From the human T2T-CHM13v2.0 reference genome, Homo sapiens, in the NCBI RefSeq assembly GCF_009914755.1, contig NC_060936.1: 64,000 bases of DNA; one strand, written 5' to 3'. Position 1 is the stretch's first letter. Each line of letters opens with the position of its first letter. Under the pieces are notes generated by a model, which worked only from the letters and a program-made list of their open reading frames with translations, did not search any database and was not told where the DNA came from. The position numbers and the translations under genes were made by a program. Below are positions 7,684 to 58,559 of the stretch, piece after piece.

Positions 7684-9079
7684 TGGAGGATAGACCGCAT
7701 TCATCTGAAAAGGAGACCAACGTCTACAACTGATGTGTGTTCTGATATGTCTTCTTATTTGTTACAATTCAGTCTGATGGGAAAAAAAAAAGATAGTCCT
7801 CCTTTCAGTGACTAATTCGTGTTGATTTATGTTCACCTCACTGGGACTCATACCTCACTTGGTCTCATATTCTTTTATCCCCTCAAAAGTATTGAAAACA
7901 CGAGTTCCTCTTGAGCAGCTCTGGAATTTAAGGATGTGTTTGTGGCAGAACTGTTGGACAGGTTGTGATCATCACTTCCTACTGAACCCCAATCACTTTG
8001 TTGAATCCCAATCGCGTCTTCAGCGGCAAATCTGACCAGGAAAAGCTCATCTAGGCATGTCTGTCTTGGACATCCATAAGCATAGATGTGCTTCTTACGA
8101 ACCTAGTGCCACCGCAACACAGGAACTCGGCGAGGATGTGACACTGAATCTAGGACAGCCACTTGGGGACACTGACGTAACGAGTCATAGGAAACAAGGC
8201 AACATGGCATGAGAGGAAGCATGGAAGGGAGGAAAGAGACTGGGTTTCTGATAGCGTTGTGGAGCTGCTCTGCCATCCCTGAGAGCAAATGCCAATGGGT
8301 ATCTCAAGTCAAGAGCAAATGCCTTGACAGTTTAAGTCACTGTGTTTATCACAGGTGGACAAAACAGAGAAGATATACCTCTTCTCTCATTTTTATCAGG
8401 TTCATTTTTGTTTGTCTGTATGTGTTTGTTGTTGTTAACAGCATTGCCCTTTGACCTGAAACCTAAACAACAGCAACAACAAATGTGCTTCTCCGTCAGA
8501 GTCTCATGAACGTTACACCAAATTACCTCTCCCCCAATTCCTCCGCACCCCATCACCAAACACAGCAGTTACTACTTGGAACCTTAGGTTTCATAGTACA
8601 CAGTTTAAAACCCACTAATCTATTTTTAAAAATAGAGTAGACTTATTTAAATACATTGTTGTTACTTCTTCAAAACAGCGATTCAAGTATTAACACAAAC
8701 ATTGGTGGCATCAGTAAAGTTTCACCTTTTGGTAACGTAATTTTTTTAATTGCAGTGATGCTGTCTTGAGAACATAAAAATATCAACTATGACTGACTCT
8801 TGCACCGTTATTTAGAAATGTTTTATGAGAGAGTGTGGTATTTTTTCCTCTGTACTGTTAATCCTGAACAGCTAAGCGTTGTGCTAATTGTCTGTTTATT
8901 GAATTATATTAATGCACATTGAGATGTGTCTTCCTTTCAGACACATTCCCCATTTAACTCATGAATGTTTAATATCTTTTTGGAACAGGTATCGATTTTA
9001 GCTTAACCCTTTATGACTTATTATCTAAATCGATATTTTGTAGAGAGATTTGACTATGAGATGATTATAAAATTACTAT

Positions 9080-9422
<343 letters not shown>

Positions 9423-10257
9423 ATAAGATTATTATGTATTTCCAGAATATGTAGAAAAACTTATAGGACTAAACGAATAGCTACATTAAATAACAACTAG
9501 GTTTTTAGTCACAAATATTTAATATATAGTAAACATCAACTAAAATGACAATCGTATGTTGAAATTATGAAAAAACATACAGATTACAAATTAATGATTA
9601 CAAGTGGAATCATGGTGAGTACATGCCAGATGACTTTTATGTTCCCAACGAGGTCATTACCTTTCTAGTTCAGGTACATCATTTCAGAACAGCAGAATTT
9701 AACAAGTTATAGATCTATGACCATAGACATATGATTATCTATGTGTATATGTACACACATAAACACACATACATGCATATACACATACATATATGTATAT
9801 ATAAGACACATGTATATGTTCATTTTTCCTTTCTTTGTAATGTTTAATATTATTAGAGCACTTATCAAACTTTCCCCAACACATTTGGAACAGTCTTCTC
9901 TCTAATTTGTCTTGAATTTTTATATACATCTTTCAATTATATCATAAACTCTATGAGAGAAACCTCTTGTTTGTTTACTTTTTAAATATCTTTTATGAAA
10001 GAGTAGGAACCTAACCAATTACAAGGCTTCAGTCAATATCCATCACCAGATCGTGTAGAATAAGATTGCAAACACTGTTCATGCCCATCAATTATCTGTT
10101 GGACTCGATTAGCCAATTTATTAGATCTTATTATTGAGTAAGCCAGGCCATCATGGAGCTCACCGATCCATGTTGAGGAAAAATAAGGAAATCAAAGATT
10201 TACATCATTAAAAGAAAAATAGCAACTATAACAAGAGCTGTTGATGAGAGGAGGCTG

Positions 10258-10324
10258 AAGGGATCTACCTGCCTTGGCCTCCCAAAGTGCTGGGATTGTG
10301 GGTGTGAGACACTGCATGCAGCCT
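10258..10324 (-). mobile_element. Alu 5'-end fragment
   Basis: gatctacctgccttggcctcccaaagtgctgggatt. Confidence 0.85.
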
Positions 10325-11870
10325 GCCTCTAATTTTTGTGGCAATCTTATTGGCATGGGACTCTGGTAAGTTCTGTGATGCACACGCACGCAAAGTGCTA
10401 GGGTGCTCTCGCTATCCAAGCACCCATTAACTAGGGACAGGGAAATAGGAGAAGCAAAGTGCATTCAGTGTTGTGCTTTCAAGGTTAATAGTAAGAATAG
10501 GTGGCACCTGTCTAGGATCAAGGGGATGTTATCATCCCCATTCTATAAAGGAGGAAAGGAGAAACAGAAGGGAAAGAAAAGCTTGAATCTTGACAACTAT
10601 GCTGCAGTCTTGCTCAGGAACCTGCAGTTGTAACCACACCACGCTGCTGCTCCCAACGCCAGGTCACTTGAAGCAATCTCAGAGTGCTGGCTGGGAGTTA
10701 GGACAGAAGGGGCAGGTGGAGGACACTCAGTGAAGGGCTTTGAATGTCCTGCTAAGGAATCTGTCCTATTCTGTGGGGCACAAAGGGCCAGGGAGGCAGA
10801 AGAGATGGGTGATGGGGCCGTGTCCATTCTGAAGCCGGAATGGAGGAGGCTCACAGGTCCTGCATGCGTAACTCCTTGTTGAAAGGCTCTGCTGCTGTGG
10901 GACCTCTAGTTTAAGCTCTGACATGCAGAGAACTTGAAAGCAGTCATTTCCGTCTTCGGAAGGAAAGGCTGGACTAGCCAAAAATCAGTGACTGTTCTTG
11001 GAACATCAGAAAACTGGAGTTGAAGGAAAAACTGCCACTGGGAATCTGGGGAGACAGAAGCACCCACGGAGTCACAGCAAAGATCGGCCTGCCAGGAGCT
11101 GCAGCTGCTGGAGACGAAGACTGAAAGTAAGATTAAATGGTAATTTTGATGAGTTGCTGGACGCTGAGTTTGACATACTAAGGGATATAAAATGGATTCA
11201 TATACAATTCTCAAATAAAAACATAAAAAGTGAAGCGAAAACAGCCAACAAACATAATGAGACCTTTATTACCCTAAGGATGAAACCAAATAAAGACATT
11301 TAAAGACGTTAAAAAGAGGAAAAGGACAGATCGATATCTCTCATAAACATAGGCAATAAAATCCTCAACACAATTGCAGTGAAATGAATCCAACAACGTA
11401 CAAAAAGAATGTAAAACTATGAGTAATTGGGATTATTCTCTGTTTCAAAGGTTTGCTCAGCATTGGAGAATCAATCCTGCCATCCACCACATCAAGAGGC
11501 TACTTGTCACATGCTCGTATCCACTCATGCAGAAGAGGCATGTGCCAGAGTCTAATGTCCGTTTATGATAAAAACTCCTAGCAAGCCAGAACGAGAGAGG
11601 AACATCCTCAGTTTGGTCAAGAACATTGAAAAATTAAACCAAGTACATACAGCCAGCGTCATACTTAACGGTGAAAAAACTGGAAGCTTCTCTCTTAAGA
11701 TCAGGAACAAGACAAATATCCTCTCTCACCACTCCTGTTCAACATCATACTGGAAGTTCTAACTGGTGCAGTAAGACAGGAGGTAAAAGTAAAATGTATC
11801 CAGATAGGAAAGGAAGAAATAAAACTGTCTGTATTCACAGACAGTTAAAAACATCCCAATCAACAGTTAA

Positions 11871-12217
<347 letters not shown>

Positions 12218-12527
12218 CAGTAAAACTCTTTAAATAAAAAAAAAAATCAAATAGAAATATAATGTATTAAAAAAATAAAGCATTTTGAATAAATAACAAA
12301 GGACCTATATTTTGGAAACTATAAAACTTTCTTTAATGATCTAAATAAATGTAAAAGTATTCTCTTCTCATAAATTGAAAATTGAATATTAAAATGCAAT
12401 TTTTTCAACTTGATCTATAGATACAATGCATTCCCAATCAAATTCCCAACAGAAATTTTGTAGATATTGGAAACTGATTCTAAAGATTATAGGAAAAGGC
12501 AAAATGCATAGAATAGGTAAAAATACA

Positions 12528-22598: not shown

Positions 22599-23020
<422 letters not shown>

Positions 23021-23220
23021 TCAAGCAGAATCTAACTTGTCACTTGCTTATGTCAGCAGCATTCCATGGTTGAAAGGGTGATCAGCATGGTGATGGTGAT
23101 GATGATGATCTTGATGATACACAGAAAATACTGATGAGTGCCTCTATGTGACGAGTACTGCTCTGTGCATTCTGCAAGGGCCACTTTCTTGAACCCTCAT
23201 AATAACTTTTTTTGAGGGCA

Positions 23221-23554
23221 TATATACTACCAGTCTCCATATTTTACAGTGAATGAGCTGAGGAAACAGAATTTTATTAACTCATCCAAGGTCAACCAGC
23301 AGTAAGACTCAAACACAGTTTTACCTTATTCTGTGTATACTACCAGTCTCCACATTTTACAGAGTGAGCTGAGAAAACAGAAGTTTATTAACTTATCCAA
23401 GGTCAACCAGCAGTAAGACTCAAACACAGTTTTACTTTATTCTGTGTATACTACCAGTCTCCACATTTTACAGAGTGAGCTGAGAAAACAGAAGTTTATT
23501 AACTTATCCAAGGTCAACCAGCAGTAAGACTGAAACACAGTGTTACCTTATTCT
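23221..23554. repeat. 3 x 111-113 bp tandem repeat made from a MIR core
   Basis: Units start at 23221, 23334 and 23445; each has attttacag...gagctgag...atccaaggtcaaccagcagtaagact. Confidence 0.96.
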
Positions 23555-23807
23555 AGAATTGTCTTACTTAACTGTAACCTATTCATGTTTTTAGCAAAGC
23601 TGGGTTGGGGTAGAATTCTCAGAAATGTCTTTCTTTTGATTACGTTCGTAGTTCTTGCCCATATTTGGGTCTATTACAAGCATGCATGACATTTTTGGGC
23701 ATAAAATTTCAAAGAACAGACAGTGATAACTTAATTCTATTGCATGATGCACAACATTTTTAAAGTAAATAAAATTAAAATTCACTTTTAAAATATGTGT
23801 AATTCCC

Positions 23808-24132
<325 letters not shown>

Positions 24133-48887: not shown

Positions 48888-49166
<279 letters not shown>

Positions 49167-49228
49167 ACGCCGCTGCACTCCAGCCTCGGCAATGAGTGTG
49201 AAACTCCATCTCAAAACAAGAACAAAAC
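49167..49228 (+). mobile_element. Alu 3' fragment fused head-to-head with the preceding Alu
   Basis: acgccgctgcactccagcctcggcaatgagtgtgaaactccatctcaaaacaag. Confidence 0.88.
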
Positions 49229-49619
49229 CACTACGGCCTCTCTATTCATTCAACCCCATAGAATTTGTGTTTACACCTCCAAGTTGAATCTTTTCCCATT
49301 GGCTAAACTTTTCTCTTAAGATCAATGATCTAACCAGCCTAATGAAGGCTTTGCCTAATGATTTTCCTGTGCGCTGATCCTTGCTGCCCTTTCCTCCCTC
49401 AGTGTTCTTTCTGTGTGTTAGGAGCGTGTTACTAGATTTCCTGGGTAAGTGACAGTGTTGGGTCACATTGCTCCTCAGAGGGTTATTTTAATGACAAGAG
49501 GAAAAGTAATATGACTTAGGAAGTGCCTTACACCCTGCCTGCCACACAGCAGGTCTCAGCTTTTCTCCTCTTTCTCTTTCTGCTTGCAGTCTCAGTTGAT
49601 GGGCACTGGGACTGTCCAC

Positions 49620-49780
49620 TCTGCATGTTTTGAGTCATTTAACTCTTCCCACAAACCTATGAGATACACTGTAATTATCTCTGCACTTTATAGATGAAAA
49701 GACTGAGGCTCAGAGTGATTTTCCCAGGGTTATGGCACTACTGAGTTGAGAGATCAGAATTCAAACCCAGAAGTGACTAT
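49620..49780. mobile_element. MIR
   Basis: ctttatagatgaaaagactgaggctcagag...attcaaacccag. Confidence 0.8.
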
Positions 49781-49786
49781 CTCCAT

Positions 49787-50680
49787 TAGAGACCAAATGT
49801 TTGTACCTCCTCCAAATTCAGAGGTTGAAATACTAACCTCCCAGCAATCATATTACAAGATGGGGCCTTTGGAGGTGATTGGGTCGTGAAGGTAGATGGA
49901 GTTCCCATGAAATTAGTGCCCTATTGTTCCTGGAAAAGGGTCCAGATCCAGACCCCAAAAGAGGGTTCTTGGATCTTGCACAAGAAAGAATTCAGAGTGA
50001 GTCCATATAGTAAAGTGAAAGCAAGTTTATTAAGAAAGTAAAGGGATAAAGAATGGCTATTCCACAGACAGAGCAGCCCCGAGGGCTGCGGGTTGCCCAT
50101 ATTTATGGTTATTTCTTGATTATTTGCTAAACAAGAGGTGGATTATTCATGCCTCCCTTTTTAGATCACATAGGGTAACTTCCTGATGTTGCCACAGCAT
50201 TTTGTAAACTGTCATGGTGCTGGTGGGAGTGTAGCAGTGAGGACGACCAGAGGTCTCTCATCACCATCTTGGTTTTGTTGGGTTTTAGCCAGCTTCTTTA
50301 CTGCAACCTGTTTTATCAGCAAGGTCTTTATTATCTGTATCTTGTGTGGACCACCTATCTCATCCTATGATTTAGAATGCCTTAACCACCTAGGAATGCA
50401 GCCTCATTGTACCCAGCCCCTACTCAAGATGGTCGCTCTGGTTCAAACATCTCTGAGACTACCTGCAGAAAAGACTCCAGGGAGCTCTGCAGTGCTCCTT
50501 CAGCCACGTGAGGACACAGGGAGAAGACGGCTGTCTGCAGCCCCTATGAGGGCTCACTCTAGAACCTGATCATCCCAACCCTAATTCAAATATCCAGCCC
50601 CCTGAACTGTGAAAAACACATTTCTGTTTTTCGTAAGTCACAGTCTGTGGTCATTTGTTCCAGTGGCCTGAACTAAGACA
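49787..50680 (+). mobile_element. MLT1A/B LTR interrupted by MER41
   Basis: ccaaattcagaggttgaaatactaacctccca...ggggcctttggaggtgatt...tgaactaagaca. Confidence 0.82.
49925..50458 (-). mobile_element. MER41A-type ERV1 solo LTR
   Basis: ggggtccagatccagacccc...ctctggttcaaacatctctgaga; 534 bp; TSD ctat/ctac; lacks the MER41B GAS-bearing segment. Confidence 0.9.
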
Positions 50681-50835
50681 TTCTCCAAAGCCCAAGCTTT
50701 TAACCACTAAGCCTCCCCTCCTCCTATTCACTTACACATCTAATGCTGTGGTCGGTCCTGTTTGCACACTCAACTGCCAGCCCGCCTCTACTTTTCTGGA
50801 AGATCACTTTTCCCACTATAGAAGGCTATAGAAAA

Positions 50836-51868
<1,033 letters not shown>

Positions 51869-52493: not shown

Positions 52494-53099
52494 CTACTAC
52501 TTGTTCACTCAGATAGGCTGGAACGTTCTGGCCACTGTTTTCACTCAGATCCAGCCTGCTAGAGCAGCCACCATCTCCAGCATTGTTTGTTTTATTGGTT
52601 TATTGTTGATATTTTTAGGCCAGTGGACAGAGAGAGCCTCAGAAGTATTTTCTTAAATTCAGTTTCCTTTTTTTACATCGGCAGATAAAATCATATGTAT
52701 AAATCCGTACAGCATGATGTTTTAAGTGTATTTATGCTGCAGAATGACTAAATCTGGCCAATTAACACATATGCACAACTTTATAGATACCCAACAACAG
52801 ATACAATTAGAAACAATTGGCTTGAATGCTCCCTTTTCCTATTTTTGTATATTTGAAATTTTCCTAATAAAAATGGACATAAATAAATAACATTTAAGGC
52901 ATTTTTTTATTAGGCATAAGCATGCATTTCTGATAACATAAATCACCCAAGAGCATTTGTTATCCAGGTATACACACATACACACTACTCTGGAAATGTG
53001 TTTTCAAGTTTTATTTTCCTGATTACGGGTCTACATTTTCTTGCCATTTTGTGTGATGTCTCTAACAGTGCTTACATCTTGTTCCGAAACTATCTGAAT

Positions 53100-53327
53100 C
53101 GTTTCTTTCTTAACGTGCAGCAACATGCACTTATTAACAATGAAATCTAGCTTCTGTTTTTTTTTCCTATGCATCTTGTGAGAGCATCTTTAGCTCATCA
53201 ATTTCTCTTGATAATTTCAACTCAGAAGAGCTAAGCATCATCTGCAGATTTAACGATTTCATTGAAAAAAAAATCCTCCAGATCAGGTATTTTAGAATAT
53301 TAAATAACACCAATCCTGAGGCCCGTC
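53100..53327 (-). mobile_element. CR1/L3 reverse-transcriptase relic
   Basis: Minus strand reads GLVLFNI, then a frameshifted ADD-like motif (tctgcagatgatgct), as in CR1 RT LGPVLFNI...FADD. Confidence 0.55.
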
Positions 53328-54004
53328 TGTAACCACTCAAAGGGTCCACCTTGCCCACTGCCTAGACAGAGCCAATTCATCAACACGGGGGAATTGCAAT
53401 AGAGAAAGAGTGATCCATGCAGAACCGGCTGTGCGGGAGACCGGAGTTTTATTATTACTCAAATCAGTCTCTCCGAGCATTCGGGGAGCAGAGTTTTTAA
53501 GGATAATTTGGTGGGTGGGGGGAAGCCAGTGAGCCAGGATACTGACTGGTCAGGGGTGAAATCGTAGAGAGTAAAGCTGTCTTCTTGCACTGAGTCAGTT
53601 CCTGGCTGAGGGCTACAAAATCAGACAAGCCAGTTTATTAATTTGGGTGGTGCCAACTGATCCATCAAGTTCAGGGTCTACAAAATATCTTGAGCCCTGA
53701 TCTTAGGAGGAGTTTAGGGAGGGTCAGAATCTTGTAGTCTCCAGCTGCATGACTCCTAAACCATCATTTCTAGTCCTGTGGCTAACATTAGTCTAGTCCC
53801 CAGGCAAGAAGGATGTCTGCTTTGGGAAGGGTGATTACCGTCTTTGTTTAAACTATAAACTACAAACTAAGTTTCTCCCAAAGTTGTTAGTTCAGCCTAT
53901 GCCCAGGAACAAACAAAGACAGCTTGGAGGTTAGAAGCAGGACGGATTCAGTTAAATTAGATCTCTTTCACCGTCTCAGTCATAATTTTGCAAAGGCAGT
54001 TTCA
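53328..54004 (-). mobile_element. LTR8 (ERV1) solo LTR
   Basis: Reverse complement starts tgaaactgcctttgcaaaattatgactgagacggtgaaagagatctaa; 677 bp; 4-bp TSD cgtc/tgtc. Confidence 0.9.
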
Positions 54005-54529
54005 TGTCTGTCTGCAGTCCATCATTCAGAGGCCTTCCCCTTGCTTCCTGCTAAAAAATGAAATATTTCCTGCTGACAAAACATTGATCCTGAGCCCAGG
54101 ATGGTTAATGGATTAAGCATGTTTGGGTGTCAATCATGGTCAGGGGGGTTTTGAATAAAAGCTAAATTAATTGGCTACATTCACTCTATATTTTCCACAC
54201 ACCCTTTTTATAGAATAAAAGAACAACTTGCTTGTGATATTTAATGAAGGCAAACAGCACTTCGTTAATGTGTTATCATCGGCACTGCCATCTGTCCCAT
54301 CAGCCGACGTAACAAGCCGGGCAGCTGGAGGGATATAGTTCATGACCTTTTCTGGGGTTGAAGAGGCCAATAGCAGGGAAACATGCACACCATTGAAACA
54401 GGCTTGATGAATAGATCTAGTGATGGGATCTATTTTGAGGATGTGTCTTTGCATGGGTATCTTTTCAAGCCTGCTTTCCCTGATGCCTGCAGGCCATCAA
54501 CAACTCTAAGCTGATGTGTGCTTTTAGCA

Positions 54530-54720
54530 GGGACTGAGCACTTAAATTACGTCAAGGATTGTGTTAGATGGAAACTTTCTAGTATCTCATTAAATCATCA
54601 AAGCGGCATGATGGGTTGCAACTATTCCCATTTCCAGTCGTGGACATGGAGAATCAAAGAATTTGAAGGTTGAAAGTTGTCCTAGGTTCATGGAGTAAGC
54701 CTGAGAGCTGAGATTTGAAC
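54530..54720. mobile_element. MIR truncated at the rearrangement junction
   Basis: atctcattaaatc...ccccattt...gagctgagatttgaac. Confidence 0.65.
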
Positions 54721-54848
54721 AAAACATTGATCCTGAGCCCAGGACACTTAATGGATTAAGCATGTTCGGATGTCAATCATTGTCAGGGCGTTTTTGAATA
54801 AAAGTTGAATTAATTGGCTACATATGTCCTATATGTAGCCAATATAGC

Positions 54849-54872
54849 CTCTCTCTCTCTCTCTCTCTCTCT

Positions 54873-54948
<76 letters not shown>
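54849..54948. repeat. (CT)n(CA)n(TA)n compound microsatellite
   Basis: Directly visible. Confidence 0.97.
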
Positions 54949-54949
<1 letters not shown>

Positions 54950-55554
54950 ACCAATATATGTACCCTAACTATATCCCTCCAGCTTCCTGGCTGGTTATGT
55001 TGGCTGATGGGACAGATGGCAGTGTTGATGATAACATATTAATGAAGTGCTGTTTGCCTTTATTAAATATCACAAGCAAATTGTTTCCTTATTCTAGAAA
55101 AAGGGTATGTAGAAAATATAGAGTGAATGTAGCCAAGTAATTTAGCTTTTATTCAAAGACCTCTTGACAATGATTGACACCCAAACATACTTAATCCATT
55201 AACCATCCAGGGCTCAGGATCAATGTTATGTCAGCAGGAAATATTTCATTTTTTAGCAGGAAGCAAAGGGAATGCCCCCGAATAATGGACTGCAGACAGA
55301 CGTGCCTCTGGATTGGTGTTATTTAACATTTTGCCTATCTGAGAAGGGAGGCTTTGCTGTCTTAGGTAGCCACCATGCTGAACTCCTGCAGACACAGCAG
55401 GGCTCAGCAGTGCTAGAGGATGCACAGGATGGAGGAGTTAAGACAGTTTTAGAATACTGTTGATGCTGGCACGTTTCCAGCTTGATGACATTAAACAAGT
55501 CACTTAACTTCTCTGAGACTCAGTTTGTATTCAATATGAGCAAATCTTACTGGA

Positions 55555-55904
<350 letters not shown>

Positions 55905-55929
55905 TAATCTGCCTTCTGCTTCTGTAGGT

Positions 55930-56018
55930 TCCTTCTCTCCTTTCTTCTTTCCTTCTTTCCTTCCTTCCTTCCTTCCTTCCTTCCTTCCTTCCTTCCTTCC
56001 CTCCCTCCCTCCCTCCCT
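55930..56018. repeat. (TTCC)n/(CCCT)n polypyrimidine tract
   Basis: Directly visible. Confidence 0.95.
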
Positions 56019-58559
56019 GAGGATAGGAGAGGAGAGTGAGGATAGGAATTACAGATAAAAGATAACTCAGTGTGCTTACATAGGCATTATCCTATGTAAG
56101 TGTTGAATTAAAGATGCCTTATGATCTGCATTGAAAATTCACAAAACACACCCTCCTGTAGGTGTAATCAGGTTCCAAAGATAAGAAGGACTTCTCAAAA
56201 TCTATGCTCAAGAGCTGAGGAAGATTGCAGCTATTTCACCATGGTGTGGGCCAAGCTCAGTTCTGCTACATAATTAGTCCCAAGTCCTTAATCCTTAGTG
56301 TATTTAACAGGACGTCTTCAGGAGTTGCTTCAGCTTATAGCCCTCAAAACCATACTCATACTTACCCTGCCTAGAGGGCTGTGGGCAAATATTTTGATCT
56401 GGGAGAATGCAGGCTACATAAGCTTGGGGATATGTATGTGTGTGTGTGTGTGAGTGTGTGTGTGCAATTACATTCATGGATGTGCCAAAGTATCCCAAAT
56501 TGTCATAGAGTGTCTGGCACACACCAGGTGTTACACCAATACTTACGGAAGAGATGAGCGAATGCATGGAGATTCCAATAACAATCACAAACAAATCCTA
56601 TGAAATATCACATTTAGAAGCCGGTGATGCTCAATATATTTTCAAGCTCCCAATAGAAAGAAGAACATCCTTCTAATTATTACATAGTGTTTATTGCAGA
56701 AAAATTCGATTTAGGAGAGAGCCATGTCATTGTACAAAGAAATCTGGGATCTGACTGCTGGCACTGTGGGTGCTCATGCTGGGGTCTGGGGACACGTTCC
56801 AGCTACGCTGTTTCCCTATTTGTGTGCAGTGATATTTTTTACTGTGTAATCATGTGTTTTTCCCCAAACTTTCTTTCATGCTGTGACTCTTTTCCTCCTC
56901 CCCATCTCAGTCTTGTGCCAAAACCTCAGGTAAGGGACAACTCATCAGAAAGTGAGAATCAAAAGTGCTTTATTTTTAAATGTCCAAAGCTTTAGACCTA
57001 AGGTAGTTGGGGTTGGGGAGGGAGACTGTGAGCAACAACAATGAAGTATTTTTAGAAAATCCAGGAGAATTGGAGAGAAAATCTCTGTGTGTGTGCTTAC
57101 GTGCTTACATGCTACATTTCTGGAAGATGTGAATGATTGCAGGAGCAGGACCCGGCACACAGAGAGATACACTCTGACTCTCGGGAGGGAGAGGAAGCAG
57201 CCGGGGAAAGCAAGTCTAAAGTCAACGGTGGATTCCAGAGAGATGGGGACTTGGCCTGACGGTGAGAAAGAAAAAGCCTAGATAATGTTTAGAGCATTTG
57301 AGTGTGAAGGCTCAGCTCCACTTTCCAAGATGGAGCTCAGGGAGATGAAAAATCCTTAGTGTAGAAATGGATGCACCAAGCCCTCCGCCCCCCATCACAG
57401 CTGATTTCCAGTGAGGAAGGCTCTCCCGCATGGGATGGGGCAGGGTTAGCAAGAGAGAGCTGGACCTGAAGGAGTCATGTGTCCTGGGACAATTAGGGAC
57501 CAGCAGTGGATGAAACAAGAGCCCTGATGTCACCAGCCCCAAGAAGCCCCAACTCTCAGTACCCTGGGTGCAAATAAGCTCCTCCTGCTTGGAATTTAGA
57601 GAAAGGGAATCACCCCAAAAGTGACTGAGATTGTTATATCCCTTTAGGGGACTCTAAATAGATATGGAAAATAGAGACCCCTAAGAGGATAGCTATCTCT
57701 ATCTGAACAAAGATACTTATAGAAATTAAAGTAGGTCATATTTCTGGCATAATTGAGCTGGGTGGTAGCATAAAAGTTTTTGCATGTTTTTCTTGTAAAT
57801 TCATAAATATAAGTTTATGTGCCTAATTCTCCCTGTCTTTCTCTCTCCTTCTTGCTCTCTAAGTCAAGCATGTGATGGTCAGGAGTTATGGAGCAGCTGG
57901 CATCTCTATCTGACCACACGCAAAGCCTCCTGGAAAACACGTGGCCATATTGGGGTTGATAATTCAGGTAGCAGAGTTGGCTTCCATGCCAGAAGTGGGA
58001 GGGACAAAGAAACCACAGACTCCCACAAAAGGAGGAGGAGCTTTCTCTGAAGTGCTACTGCCCAAGAATCAGACACCTTTTGTGGTGGCCACTGATGTTT
58101 AAAGCTGAGACATTGGCTTCTGTGCTTGCCTTTCTGGGACCACCCTCCCTTTCACAGCACATGGAGATGCTCCACGAATAATGTGGCCAAGGCCCAGCCT
58201 CCCTCCCCTCTGCAGCATCTGGAGATGCTCCATGAAGGATGTAGCTCCGGGCCTTCTGAGCCAGGCACCCTCGACTTGGCCATCTCTATAACTTTGGGAA
58301 GTAGGGTGGGCCGGAGAGACCACCGAGTCCAAAGACCAGAGCTACTCCGGAGTGCCACCTTGTAATGCACAATTATTTGTTTGTGGCAATAAAATAAGTG
58401 GGAAACATTGACATTTAGCTAGAAAATTGAGGCTCTGACCTATGCGCCATGCCTATAAACTCCAGCTACCTAAACCTAAACCTCAGTTTGTTTGTTTGTT
58501 TGTTTGTTTGTTTGTTTTGATTTGGTCTATTTCATACCTTACCACCCTGGCTGCTCAAT

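What the first reader, a model, noticed from the sequence alone, without database searches (positions are those of the whole stretch)
54005..55302. 336-bp gap-free, non-Alu inverted repeat that can fold into a long dsRNA or cruciform
Seen: 54005-54340 is the reverse complement of 54967-55302, with about 32 substitutions and no indels by manual alignment. This explains why ORFs 54167-54454(-) and 54814-55140(+) share the peptide NYIPPA...ADGTDGS...KCCLP...KYRVNVA. I do not recognise the arms as a known repeat, apart from a CR1-like tip. Established: long near-perfect duplexes in nascent RNA are ADAR, Dicer and MDA5 substrates, and close inverted repeats tend to be unstable in DNA. Inference: if transcribed on either strand, this is a unique-sequence dsRNA hairpin that could be a non-Alu editing cluster, an endo-siRNA source or a splicing-looping element.
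Basis: partly seen in the sequence, partly recalled or inferred. Interest (0 to 1): 0.8.

Follow-up and report, generated by a model that had tools for sequence, protein, structure and literature searches.

The report
Old local inverted duplication, intergenic
This is a real, single-locus inverted repeat left by an old local duplication in a human gene desert; it could fold into a long RNA hairpin if transcribed, but nothing found here suggests that it is used.

Summary
54003-54340 is the reverse complement of 54967-55304: 338 nt, 32 mismatches, no gaps, 626-nt spacer.

The repeat is larger and more complex than reported:
- The right arm runs on to 55330. The left arm resumes at 53296-53327, on the far side of a 677-bp solo ERV LTR (53328-54004, 4-bp target duplication). 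The original arms were 364 nt, with 34 mismatches and 0 gaps.
- A third, partial copy (54719-54823/34) lies in the spacer, next to a 13-nt perfect palindrome and a compound microsatellite.

The arm sequence occurs nowhere else in the T2T genome, even at E<=10. The same search found 3391 candidates for the LTR, so it does detect interspersed repeats. The arms are therefore not Alu and not transposon termini.

The mismatches look neutral: 23 transitions, 9 transversions, 7 at CpG. Either strand folds into a roughly 315-pair duplex.

No support for function was found: no annotated transcript, no CpG island nearby, no Rfam match, and the LTR promoter points away from the core. The 626-nt spacer puts it outside the unstable-palindrome class.

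Best reading: a repair or replication template-switch duplication roughly 35-50 Myr old, now decaying neutrally. Interest is low.

The parts
53296..53327 (+). Outer 32 nt of the left arm, cut off from the rest by the LTR insertion. It pairs with 55299-55330.
   Evidence: 35-nt inverted match 53296-53330 / 55296-55330 at 91%. It is contiguous with the right arm. The rebuilt 364-nt arms align with 34 mismatches and 0 gaps.
53328..54004 (-). Solo ERV LTR, class I-like, 677 bp, TG...CA ends, inserted into the left arm after the duplication. The 4-bp target duplication is at 53324-53327 (CGTC) and 54005-54008 (TGTC, one CpG-type change).
   Evidence: 3391 first-look candidates in the genome; 40 scored, all matches: the query itself plus 39 near full-length copies at 83-87%. 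Of the 5 other copies examined, 3 (L006, L007, L009) share the same ends and have their own 4-bp duplications; in the other 2 the alignment started 10 nt inside. Orientation comes from a provirus on C15: a TGG-initiated primer-binding-like site follows one LTR (L011:74-91) and a purine tract precedes the other (L012:117-127). The right arm passes the insertion point without it.
54009..54340 (+). Main part of the left arm (the finding's 54005-54340).
54341..54718 (.). Unique part of the spacer (378 nt).
   Evidence: The genome search finds only itself: 1 candidate, 1 match. No inward extension of the repeat.
54719..54834 (+). Third, partial copy. It is direct relative to left-arm 54076-54191 and inverted relative to right-arm 55116-55231.
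   Evidence: 95 of 105 identical to the left arm and 90 of 105 to the right arm. Over 116 nt the figures are 101 and 96.
54813..54843 (.). Perfect 13-nt palindrome with a 5-nt loop at the end of the third copy. Its second half is the reverse complement of the copy's own preceding bases and replaces what the left arm has at that place.
   Evidence: comparison with the left arm.
54849..54949 (.). Compound microsatellite (CT)12 (AC)26.5 (AT)12.5, lying between the third copy and the right arm.
54967..55330 (-). Right arm, 364 nt and uninterrupted. It is the reverse complement of 53296-53327 plus 54009-54340.
   Evidence: The genome search finds only the local copies at E<=10.

Best explanation
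The feature is a relic of one old, local, complex duplication of unique intergenic DNA. A 364-nt segment was copied in inverted orientation about 1 kb away, and a piece of about 110 nt from the same segment was copied in direct orientation just before it. The most likely cause (inferred) is template switching during replication or break repair. An ERV LTR later inserted into the outer part of the left arm, and a microsatellite grew at the junction between the two new copies. Since then the copies have drifted apart by ordinary neutral mutation. The divergence, K about 0.10 between arms, corresponds to roughly 35-50 million years at a recalled rate of about 1.0-1.4e-9 per site per year. The locus would form a duplex of about 340 bp if an RNA ever ran through it. 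It most likely has no function, and the 626-nt spacer keeps it genetically stable.
For: SHOWN:
- Arms of 338 nt, or 364 nt across the LTR, with 32 or 34 mismatches and 0 gaps.
- Only three copies in the whole T2T genome, all inside this 2-kb stretch, even at E<=10. The spacer is unique. As a positive control, the same tool gives 3391 candidates for the inserted LTR and aligns 83-87% identical copies.
- The right arm reads straight through the LTR insertion site, and the LTR has a 4-bp target duplication, so the duplication predates the insertion.
- The dates agree. Arms: K = 0.100, non-CpG 0.085. This LTR against its five closest copies: K = 0.122-0.133, non-CpG 0.105-0.116, an upper bound on its age. 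One proviral LTR pair of the family: K = 0.13.
- The mutation spectrum looks neutral: 23 transitions to 9 transversions, and 7 of 32 mismatches at CpG sites, with CpG loss in both arms. Mismatches that remain G-U pairs number 13 on the + strand and 10 on the - strand, so there is no strand bias. The longest perfect run is 38 nt, about what random spacing gives.
- The three copies are roughly equidistant over the shared 105 nt (10, 9 and 15 mismatches), which is compatible with a single event.
- A perfect 13-nt fold-back sits at the end of the direct copy.
INFERRED:
- The template-switch mechanism. Such switches are documented to create inverted repeats, with and without spacers, in human-chimp comparisons (PMC5453318, passages read). 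Iterative switches are reported to give inverted and direct copy gains (PMC11293582, abstract start in the search listing only).
Against: The complete absence of indels is mildly unexpected. In my LTR comparisons gap events ran at 0.062-0.102 per mismatch, so 34 mismatches predict 2.1-3.5 gaps, giving a Poisson P(0) of about 0.03-0.12. This could hint at constraint or past gene conversion. Without an outgroup genome I cannot tell which copy is the original, cannot show that the direct and inverted copies arose in one event, and cannot see junction microhomology (the junctions printed show nothing clear). Unique changes over 116 nt are uneven (left arm 2, right arm 7, third copy 13), so two separate events remain possible. 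Expression data were not available, so the absence of function is argued only from annotation and sequence.
Confidence: 0.8

Rival explanations
1. The locus is a functional hairpin-RNA gene. It would be transcribed through both arms, and the roughly 340-bp duplex would be edited by ADAR or diced into small RNAs. Selection on the duplex would explain why the arms stayed gap-free.
For: Both strands are predicted to fold arm on arm. There are zero indels against 2.1-3.5 expected. The sequence is unique, so any small RNAs would be locus-specific.
Against: There is no annotated transcript over it and none within 100 kb downstream (hub table). No CpG-island-like window lies in 50-58 kb. The adjacent LTR's sense strand points away from the core. 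No Rfam match falls in the arms at E<=1. The mismatch spectrum is neutral, with no excess of pair-preserving changes on either strand (13 against 10), and 9 transversions break pairing on both strands. From recalled knowledge, somatic human cells make few endo-siRNAs from long hairpins.
Confidence: 0.06
2. The arms are the long terminal inverted repeats of a non-autonomous DNA transposon spanning 53296-55330.
For: The overall shape fits: two long inverted ends around an internal segment, with an internal subterminal repeat (the third copy).
Against: No other copy of the arm or of the internal 378 nt exists in 3.1 Gb, although the tool finds thousands of candidates for a repeat of similar age. 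At about 5% per-arm divergence, a family this young should still have recognisable copies. The flanks printed show no target-site duplication at 53295/53296 and 55330/55331.
Confidence: 0.03
3. The duplication is much older than it looks, and the arms have been kept similar by intrachromosomal gene conversion, as in concerted evolution of a palindrome.
For: The arms are gap-free. Their non-CpG K (0.085) is slightly lower than that of the LTR against its closest relatives (0.105-0.116), although the LTR must be the younger of the two.
Against: The difference is within sampling error (28 mismatches in 350 sites). The LTR figure also includes differences between source copies, so it is only an upper bound. 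Mismatches are spread evenly, with no long identical tract: the longest run is 38 nt. The third copy, which would not be converted together with both arms, is about as far from the left arm (10 of 105) as the right arm is (9 of 105).
Confidence: 0.08
4. The repeat is an assembly artefact, a fold-back chimera in the T2T assembly.
For: None beyond the palindromic shape.
Against: The arms differ at 34 of 364 sites, and one arm carries an LTR with its own target duplication. An artefactual fold-back would be identical in both arms.
Confidence: 0.01

Closest known systems
Long inverted repeats (LIRs) of the human genome, as catalogued with IRF or Lirex
   Same: Two reverse-complementary copies longer than 30 bp, more than 85% identical, within a 2-kb window. 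This meets the working definition given in PMC5414712 (passages read).
   Different: Most catalogued LIRs are short or built from Alu, L1 or LTR copies. This one is 338-364 nt of sequence with no other copy in the genome. Its arm-to-spacer ratio is 0.54-0.58, far from the ratio above 16 and the spacer below 20 bp quoted there for strongly recombinogenic repeats.
Inverted Alu pairs, the main substrates of ADAR editing and of MDA5 sensing
   Same: Similar arm length (about 300 nt) and a similar spacer range. The window itself holds 3 such Alu pairs with spacers of 792-2526 nt. The predicted RNA outcome, a long imperfect duplex, is the same.
   Different: This repeat is not a retroelement and arose by local duplication, not by two independent insertions. 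It is more similar (90.5% against 81-85%) and gap-free (0 gaps against 3-10) compared with the window's Alu pairs. It does not lie in a gene, whereas edited Alu pairs lie mostly in introns and 3'UTRs (PMC11838218, passages read).
Inverted repeats created by replication template switching (four-point model; DUP-TRP/INV-DUP-type iterative switches)
   Same: [quoted passage not shown] The model explicitly yields inverted repeats with or without spacers that can form RNA hairpins (PMC5453318, passages read).
   Different: The events described in that paper are tens of bases long, and the clinical DUP-TRP/INV-DUP events span kilobases to megabases. This one is intermediate, at about 0.1-0.4 kb per copy. 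It is also old, so the junction microhomology that would prove the mechanism is no longer readable.
Hairpin-RNA (hpRNA/endo-siRNA) loci of Drosophila and mouse oocytes, and plant MIR genes born by inverted duplication (recalled, not looked up here)
   Same: A long inverted duplication of unique sequence that would give a long intramolecular duplex.
   Different: Those loci are defined by transcription and by small RNAs. Neither is shown here, and no annotated transcript covers the locus.

Membership tests
Long inverted repeat (LIR) / local inverted duplication | Two reverse-complementary arms longer than 30 bp with more than 85% identity, lying close together | tested here: met
   338 nt at 90.5%, or 364 nt at 90.7% across the LTR, with a 626-nt spacer.
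Long inverted repeat (LIR) / local inverted duplication | Copies are local paralogues, not members of an interspersed family | tested here: met
   The whole-genome search finds 3 matches, all local, at E<=0.001 and at E<=10. A control with the LTR gives 3391 candidates. Very old, highly diverged relatives would escape this search.
Recombinogenic palindrome / cruciform-prone inverted repeat | Short spacer (below about 20 bp) and a high arm-to-spacer ratio (above 16) | tested here: not met
   The spacer is 626 nt and the ratio is 0.54-0.58. Thresholds are as quoted in PMC5414712 and PMC10164571 (passages read).
DNA transposon with terminal inverted repeats / MITE | Multiple dispersed copies in the genome | tested here: not met
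   no copy outside the locus.
DNA transposon with terminal inverted repeats / MITE | Target-site duplication directly flanking the two termini | tested here: not met
   The flanks at 53295/53296 and 55330/55331, printed, share no direct repeat. This was judged by eye only.
Inverted Alu pair | Arms are Alu (7SL-derived) elements | tested here: not met
   The arms have no similarity to the window's Alus (3 HSPs cover the arm midpoint against 24 for each of the three Alu pairs). The SRP/Alu-type Rfam hits lie at 55590-55842, outside the arms.
Long, highly paired dsRNA (putative MDA5 substrate as defined by dsRNAscan) | More than 300 bp and more than 96% of nucleotides paired | tested here: not met
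   The length is met at 338 bp. Pairing including G-U is 319 of 338 (94.4%) on + and 316 of 338 (93.5%) on -. The definition is from PMC11838218 section 10 (read).
Expressed hairpin RNA / endo-siRNA or editing cluster | Transcription through both arms, with A-to-I sites on both arms or phased small RNAs | not testable with these tools
   No expression, editing or small-RNA data are reachable. The hub table lists no transcript here.
Known structured RNA family (Rfam 15, including miRNA precursors) | A covariance-model match | tested here: not met
   Of 3 matches at E<=1 in 52500-56500, 2 are Alu-type and lie outside the arms. The third is an SgrS (bacterial sRNA) model at 18 bits against a gathering score of 37, which I take as chance.

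The most novel reading that the evidence does not exclude
The repeat is a primate-specific, unique-sequence hairpin-RNA locus. An unannotated intergenic transcript would run through both arms and form a duplex of about 340 bp that is hyper-edited or diced. Selection on that duplex would be why 364 nt stayed free of indels for tens of millions of years.
Probability: 0.05. Interest if true: 0.55.

Novelty: new member of a known kind. Interest (0 to 1): 0.15.

Why it matters
Taken at face value it matters little. It is one more long inverted repeat in a genome for which a genome-wide scan predicts about 5.1 million potential dsRNA-forming pairs, about 1 million of them longer than 300 bp (PMC11838218). 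It is a clean, datable example of a sub-kilobase inverted-plus-direct duplication of unique sequence, bracketed in time by an LTR insertion. That could serve as a test case for template-switch models at a size between the 'short' and the clinical events. It would gain interest only if RNA data showed transcription and editing, because long duplexes made of unique sequence are uncommon and can be mapped unambiguously.

Tried and rejected
- Coding origin of the arms. Pfam gave 0 families for both ORFs at E<=1. A six-frame search of the genome with the 108-aa ORF returned 149 matches. Apart from the two local arm copies, they align to the microsatellite-encoded part of the ORF (from about residue 5 to 60; some low-identity alignments run on to residue 100) and I take them to be dinucleotide-repeat matches, not relatives.
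- Further outward or inward extension of the repeat. Local alignment found nothing beyond 53296/55330 or inside 54340/54967.
- LTR-driven transcription of the hairpin. Rejected because the LTR's sense strand is the window's minus strand.
- Gene conversion as a necessary part of the story. Not needed, because the dates agree within error.
- CR1 identity of the arm tip. It could not be tested properly; the recalled tail motif is absent.
- CpG-island or promoter search near the repeat. No window in 50-58 kb qualified; the nearest qualifying windows start between 49000 and 49500.
- Junction microhomology. The junctions were printed but are not informative after this much decay.
- The name of the LTR family was not determined, since no repeat library is on hand.

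Full report
**Observation.** The inverted repeat is real and far beyond chance. The repeat finder gives arms 54003-54340 and 54967-55304: 338 nt, 91% complementary, 626 nt apart. A self-BLAST gives 90.5% identity, 0 gaps and E = 2e-132. This is only the mirror image of the repeat read in matching frames. The + strand ORF also runs through a dinucleotide microsatellite. Neither ORF hits Pfam, and a six-frame search of the genome returns only the local copy plus microsatellite-type matches.

**Fuller anatomy.** The repeat is larger and more complex than reported.
- Outer extension. The right arm continues to 55330. Its last 35 nt match 53296-53330 (91%), about 670 nt to the left of where the left arm seemed to start.
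- LTR insertion. The intervening 53328-54004 is a 677-bp element with TG...CA ends, flanked by a 4-bp target duplication (CGTC / TGTC, one CpG-type change). Of the 5 other genomic copies I examined, 3 (L006, L007, L009) share the same ends and have their own 4-bp duplications; in the other 2 (L005, L008) the alignment began 10 nt inside the element. The family is abundant: 3391 first-look candidates, of which 40 were scored and all matched (the query itself plus 39 near full-length copies at 83-87%). It is an LTR. On contig C15 two copies 8.5 kb apart bracket a TGG-initiated primer-binding-like site (L011:74-91) and a purine tract (L012:117-127). From memory the site resembles the tRNA-Pro type, which would fit a class I ERV, as does the 4-bp duplication. 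I did not determine the family name.
- Original arms. With the LTR and one duplication copy removed, the arms are 364 nt with 34 mismatches and still 0 gaps.
- Third copy. 54719-54823 is a third, partial copy. It is direct relative to left-arm 54076-54180 (95 of 105) and inverted relative to the right arm (90 of 105). Weaker similarity runs on to 54834.
- Junction features. This copy ends in a perfect 13-nt palindrome with a 5-nt loop (54813-54825 / 54831-54843). Its second half is the reverse complement of the copy's own preceding bases and replaces what the left arm has at that position. Then comes (CT)12 (AC)26.5 (AT)12.5 at 54849-54949, followed by 17 nt and the right arm.

**Not a repeat family.** A search of the whole 3.1-Gb T2T assembly with the left arm, and with the full right arm at E<=10, finds only the three local copies. 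The 378-nt unique spacer finds only itself. The tool warns that very common words are skipped. The LTR query serves as a positive control, showing that interspersed repeats of comparable age (83-87% identity) are found in large numbers. That would not change the conclusion that the inverted repeat is a local duplication. The flanks show no target-site duplication. Within the 64-kb window there are 5 close inverted pairs with arms of at least 100 nt, at least 80% identity and spacers of at most 3 kb. Three are Alu pairs, at 81-85% identity with 3-10 gaps. The other two are this repeat and its third copy.

**History and dating.** The right arm reads straight through the LTR insertion point, so the duplication came first and the LTR later. 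The distances fit that order.
- Arms: K = 0.100, non-CpG 0.085.
- This LTR against its five closest copies: K = 0.122-0.133, non-CpG 0.105-0.116. This is an upper bound on its insertion age, because it includes differences between source copies.
- The C15 proviral LTR pair: K = 0.13.

With a recalled human-lineage rate of about 1.0-1.4e-9 per site per year, K = 0.10 between two copies on the same lineage gives roughly 35-50 million years. This is an inference, and only orthologous loci from other primates can fix the date.

The mismatches look like neutral decay. There are 23 transitions and 9 transversions. Seven mismatches are at CpG sites, with loss in both arms. Their spacing is even: the longest perfect run is 38 nt, about what 9.5% random mismatches would give.

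The three copies are roughly equidistant over the shared 105 nt, with 10, 9 and 15 mismatches. That is compatible with one event. Over 116 nt the unique changes are uneven (2, 7 and 13), so two events cannot be excluded.

**Mechanism of origin (inferred).** The layout is an inverted copy and a short direct copy of the same nearby segment, placed side by side about 0.4 kb from the source, with a small perfect fold-back at the junction. This is what serial template switching during replication or break repair produces. Short template switches that create inverted repeats, with or without spacers, are documented in human-chimp comparisons (PMC5453318, passages read). Iterative switches that yield inverted and direct copy gains are described at larger scale (PMC11293582, seen only as the abstract start in a search listing). 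After this much decay the junctions show no readable microhomology, and without an outgroup I cannot say which copy is the original.

**What the locus can do.**
- As RNA, either strand folds arm on arm. The MFE is -691 kcal/mol (+) and -701 (-), with 318 and 314 of 338 positions paired to their mirror partner. The arm-arm duplex is -535 and -527 kcal/mol, against -107.5 +/- 7.6 for 50 shuffled right arms.
- Counting G-U pairs, 94.4% (+) and 93.5% (-) of positions pair. This is long enough for ADAR or Dicer in principle. It is below the >300 bp and >96% class singled out as putative MDA5 substrates in the dsRNAscan preprint.
- That preprint predicts 5,134,754 dsRNAs genome-wide, about 1 million of them longer than 300 bp, and 2,018 that are both long and highly paired.
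- As DNA, a cruciform is not a realistic state. In yeast Alu-IR assays, widening the spacer from 12 to 100 bp lowers recombination about 300-fold, and divergence lowers it further. Widely spaced repeats interact mainly in long single-stranded DNA (PMC10164571, passages read). The Lirex paper quotes a spacer below 20 bp and an arm-to-spacer ratio above 16 for strong recombinogenicity (PMC5414712, passages read). Here the spacer is 626 nt and the ratio is 0.54-0.58. The repeat has also plainly persisted since before the LTR insertion.

**Evidence on function.**
- Against:
  - The hub's table shows no transcript over the locus and no gene within 100 kb downstream. The nearest model is a lncRNA 24 kb upstream.
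  - No CpG-island-like window lies in 50-58 kb.
  - Rfam has nothing in the arms.
  - The LTR's sense strand is the window's minus strand, so its promoter points away from the core.
  - Mismatches that remain wobble pairs show no strand preference, 13 against 10.
- For: the one oddity is the total absence of indels. My LTR comparisons give 0.062-0.102 gap events per mismatch, so 2.1-3.5 gaps were expected, with P(0) of about 0.03-0.12. That is too weak to carry a functional claim, but it keeps a small probability alive.

**Verdict.** The structure is confirmed and better defined. It is unique-sequence, non-Alu and not a transposon. It is best explained as a neutral relic of an old local inverted-plus-direct duplication, later hit by an LTR. 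It is a new instance of a well-known kind. Interest is low unless RNA data show that it is transcribed.

Noticed in passing
window 53328-54004: Full-length solo ERV LTR (677 bp, TG...CA ends, 4-bp target duplication) with its sense strand on the minus strand. The family has at least 3391 candidate copies in the genome. The family name was not determined.
   Followed up: yes
window 51262-51322 and 51710-51781: Two short matches (76-79%) to the LTR at 53452-53511 and 53856-53930, in the same order and orientation. This is probably an older or related LTR copy about 2 kb upstream.
   Followed up: no
window 55555-55850: An Alu in minus orientation, with a T-run at its left end, 225 nt beyond the right arm. 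It gives sub-threshold Rfam hits to Metazoa_SRP and mir-3135.
   Followed up: partly
window 54849-54949: Compound microsatellite (CT)12 (AC)26.5 (AT)12.5 exactly at the junction between the third copy and the right arm. The short motif CCAATATA lies on both sides of it.
   Followed up: partly
window 9079-12219, 22726-24102, 48972-51084: Three inverted Alu pairs with spacers of 2526, 792 and 1715 nt, 81-85% identity and 3-10 gaps. These are the ordinary kind of dsRNA-capable repeat in this window.
   Followed up: no
G000:C15:67152541-67161699 (L011-L014): An endogenous provirus of the same LTR family. A primer-binding-like site follows the 5' LTR and a purine tract precedes the 3' LTR. The LTR pair has K = 0.13 with 9 gap events. 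My lenient local alignment ran 29 nt and 50 nt past the LTR edges, which I did not examine.
   Followed up: partly
G000:C14:2119348-2695033: In the protein search, 14 identical weak hits spaced exactly 44,272 bp apart on the short arm of contig 14. This looks like a large tandem array, with a unit the size of an rDNA repeat as I recall it, each unit carrying the same dinucleotide-repeat stretch.
   Followed up: no
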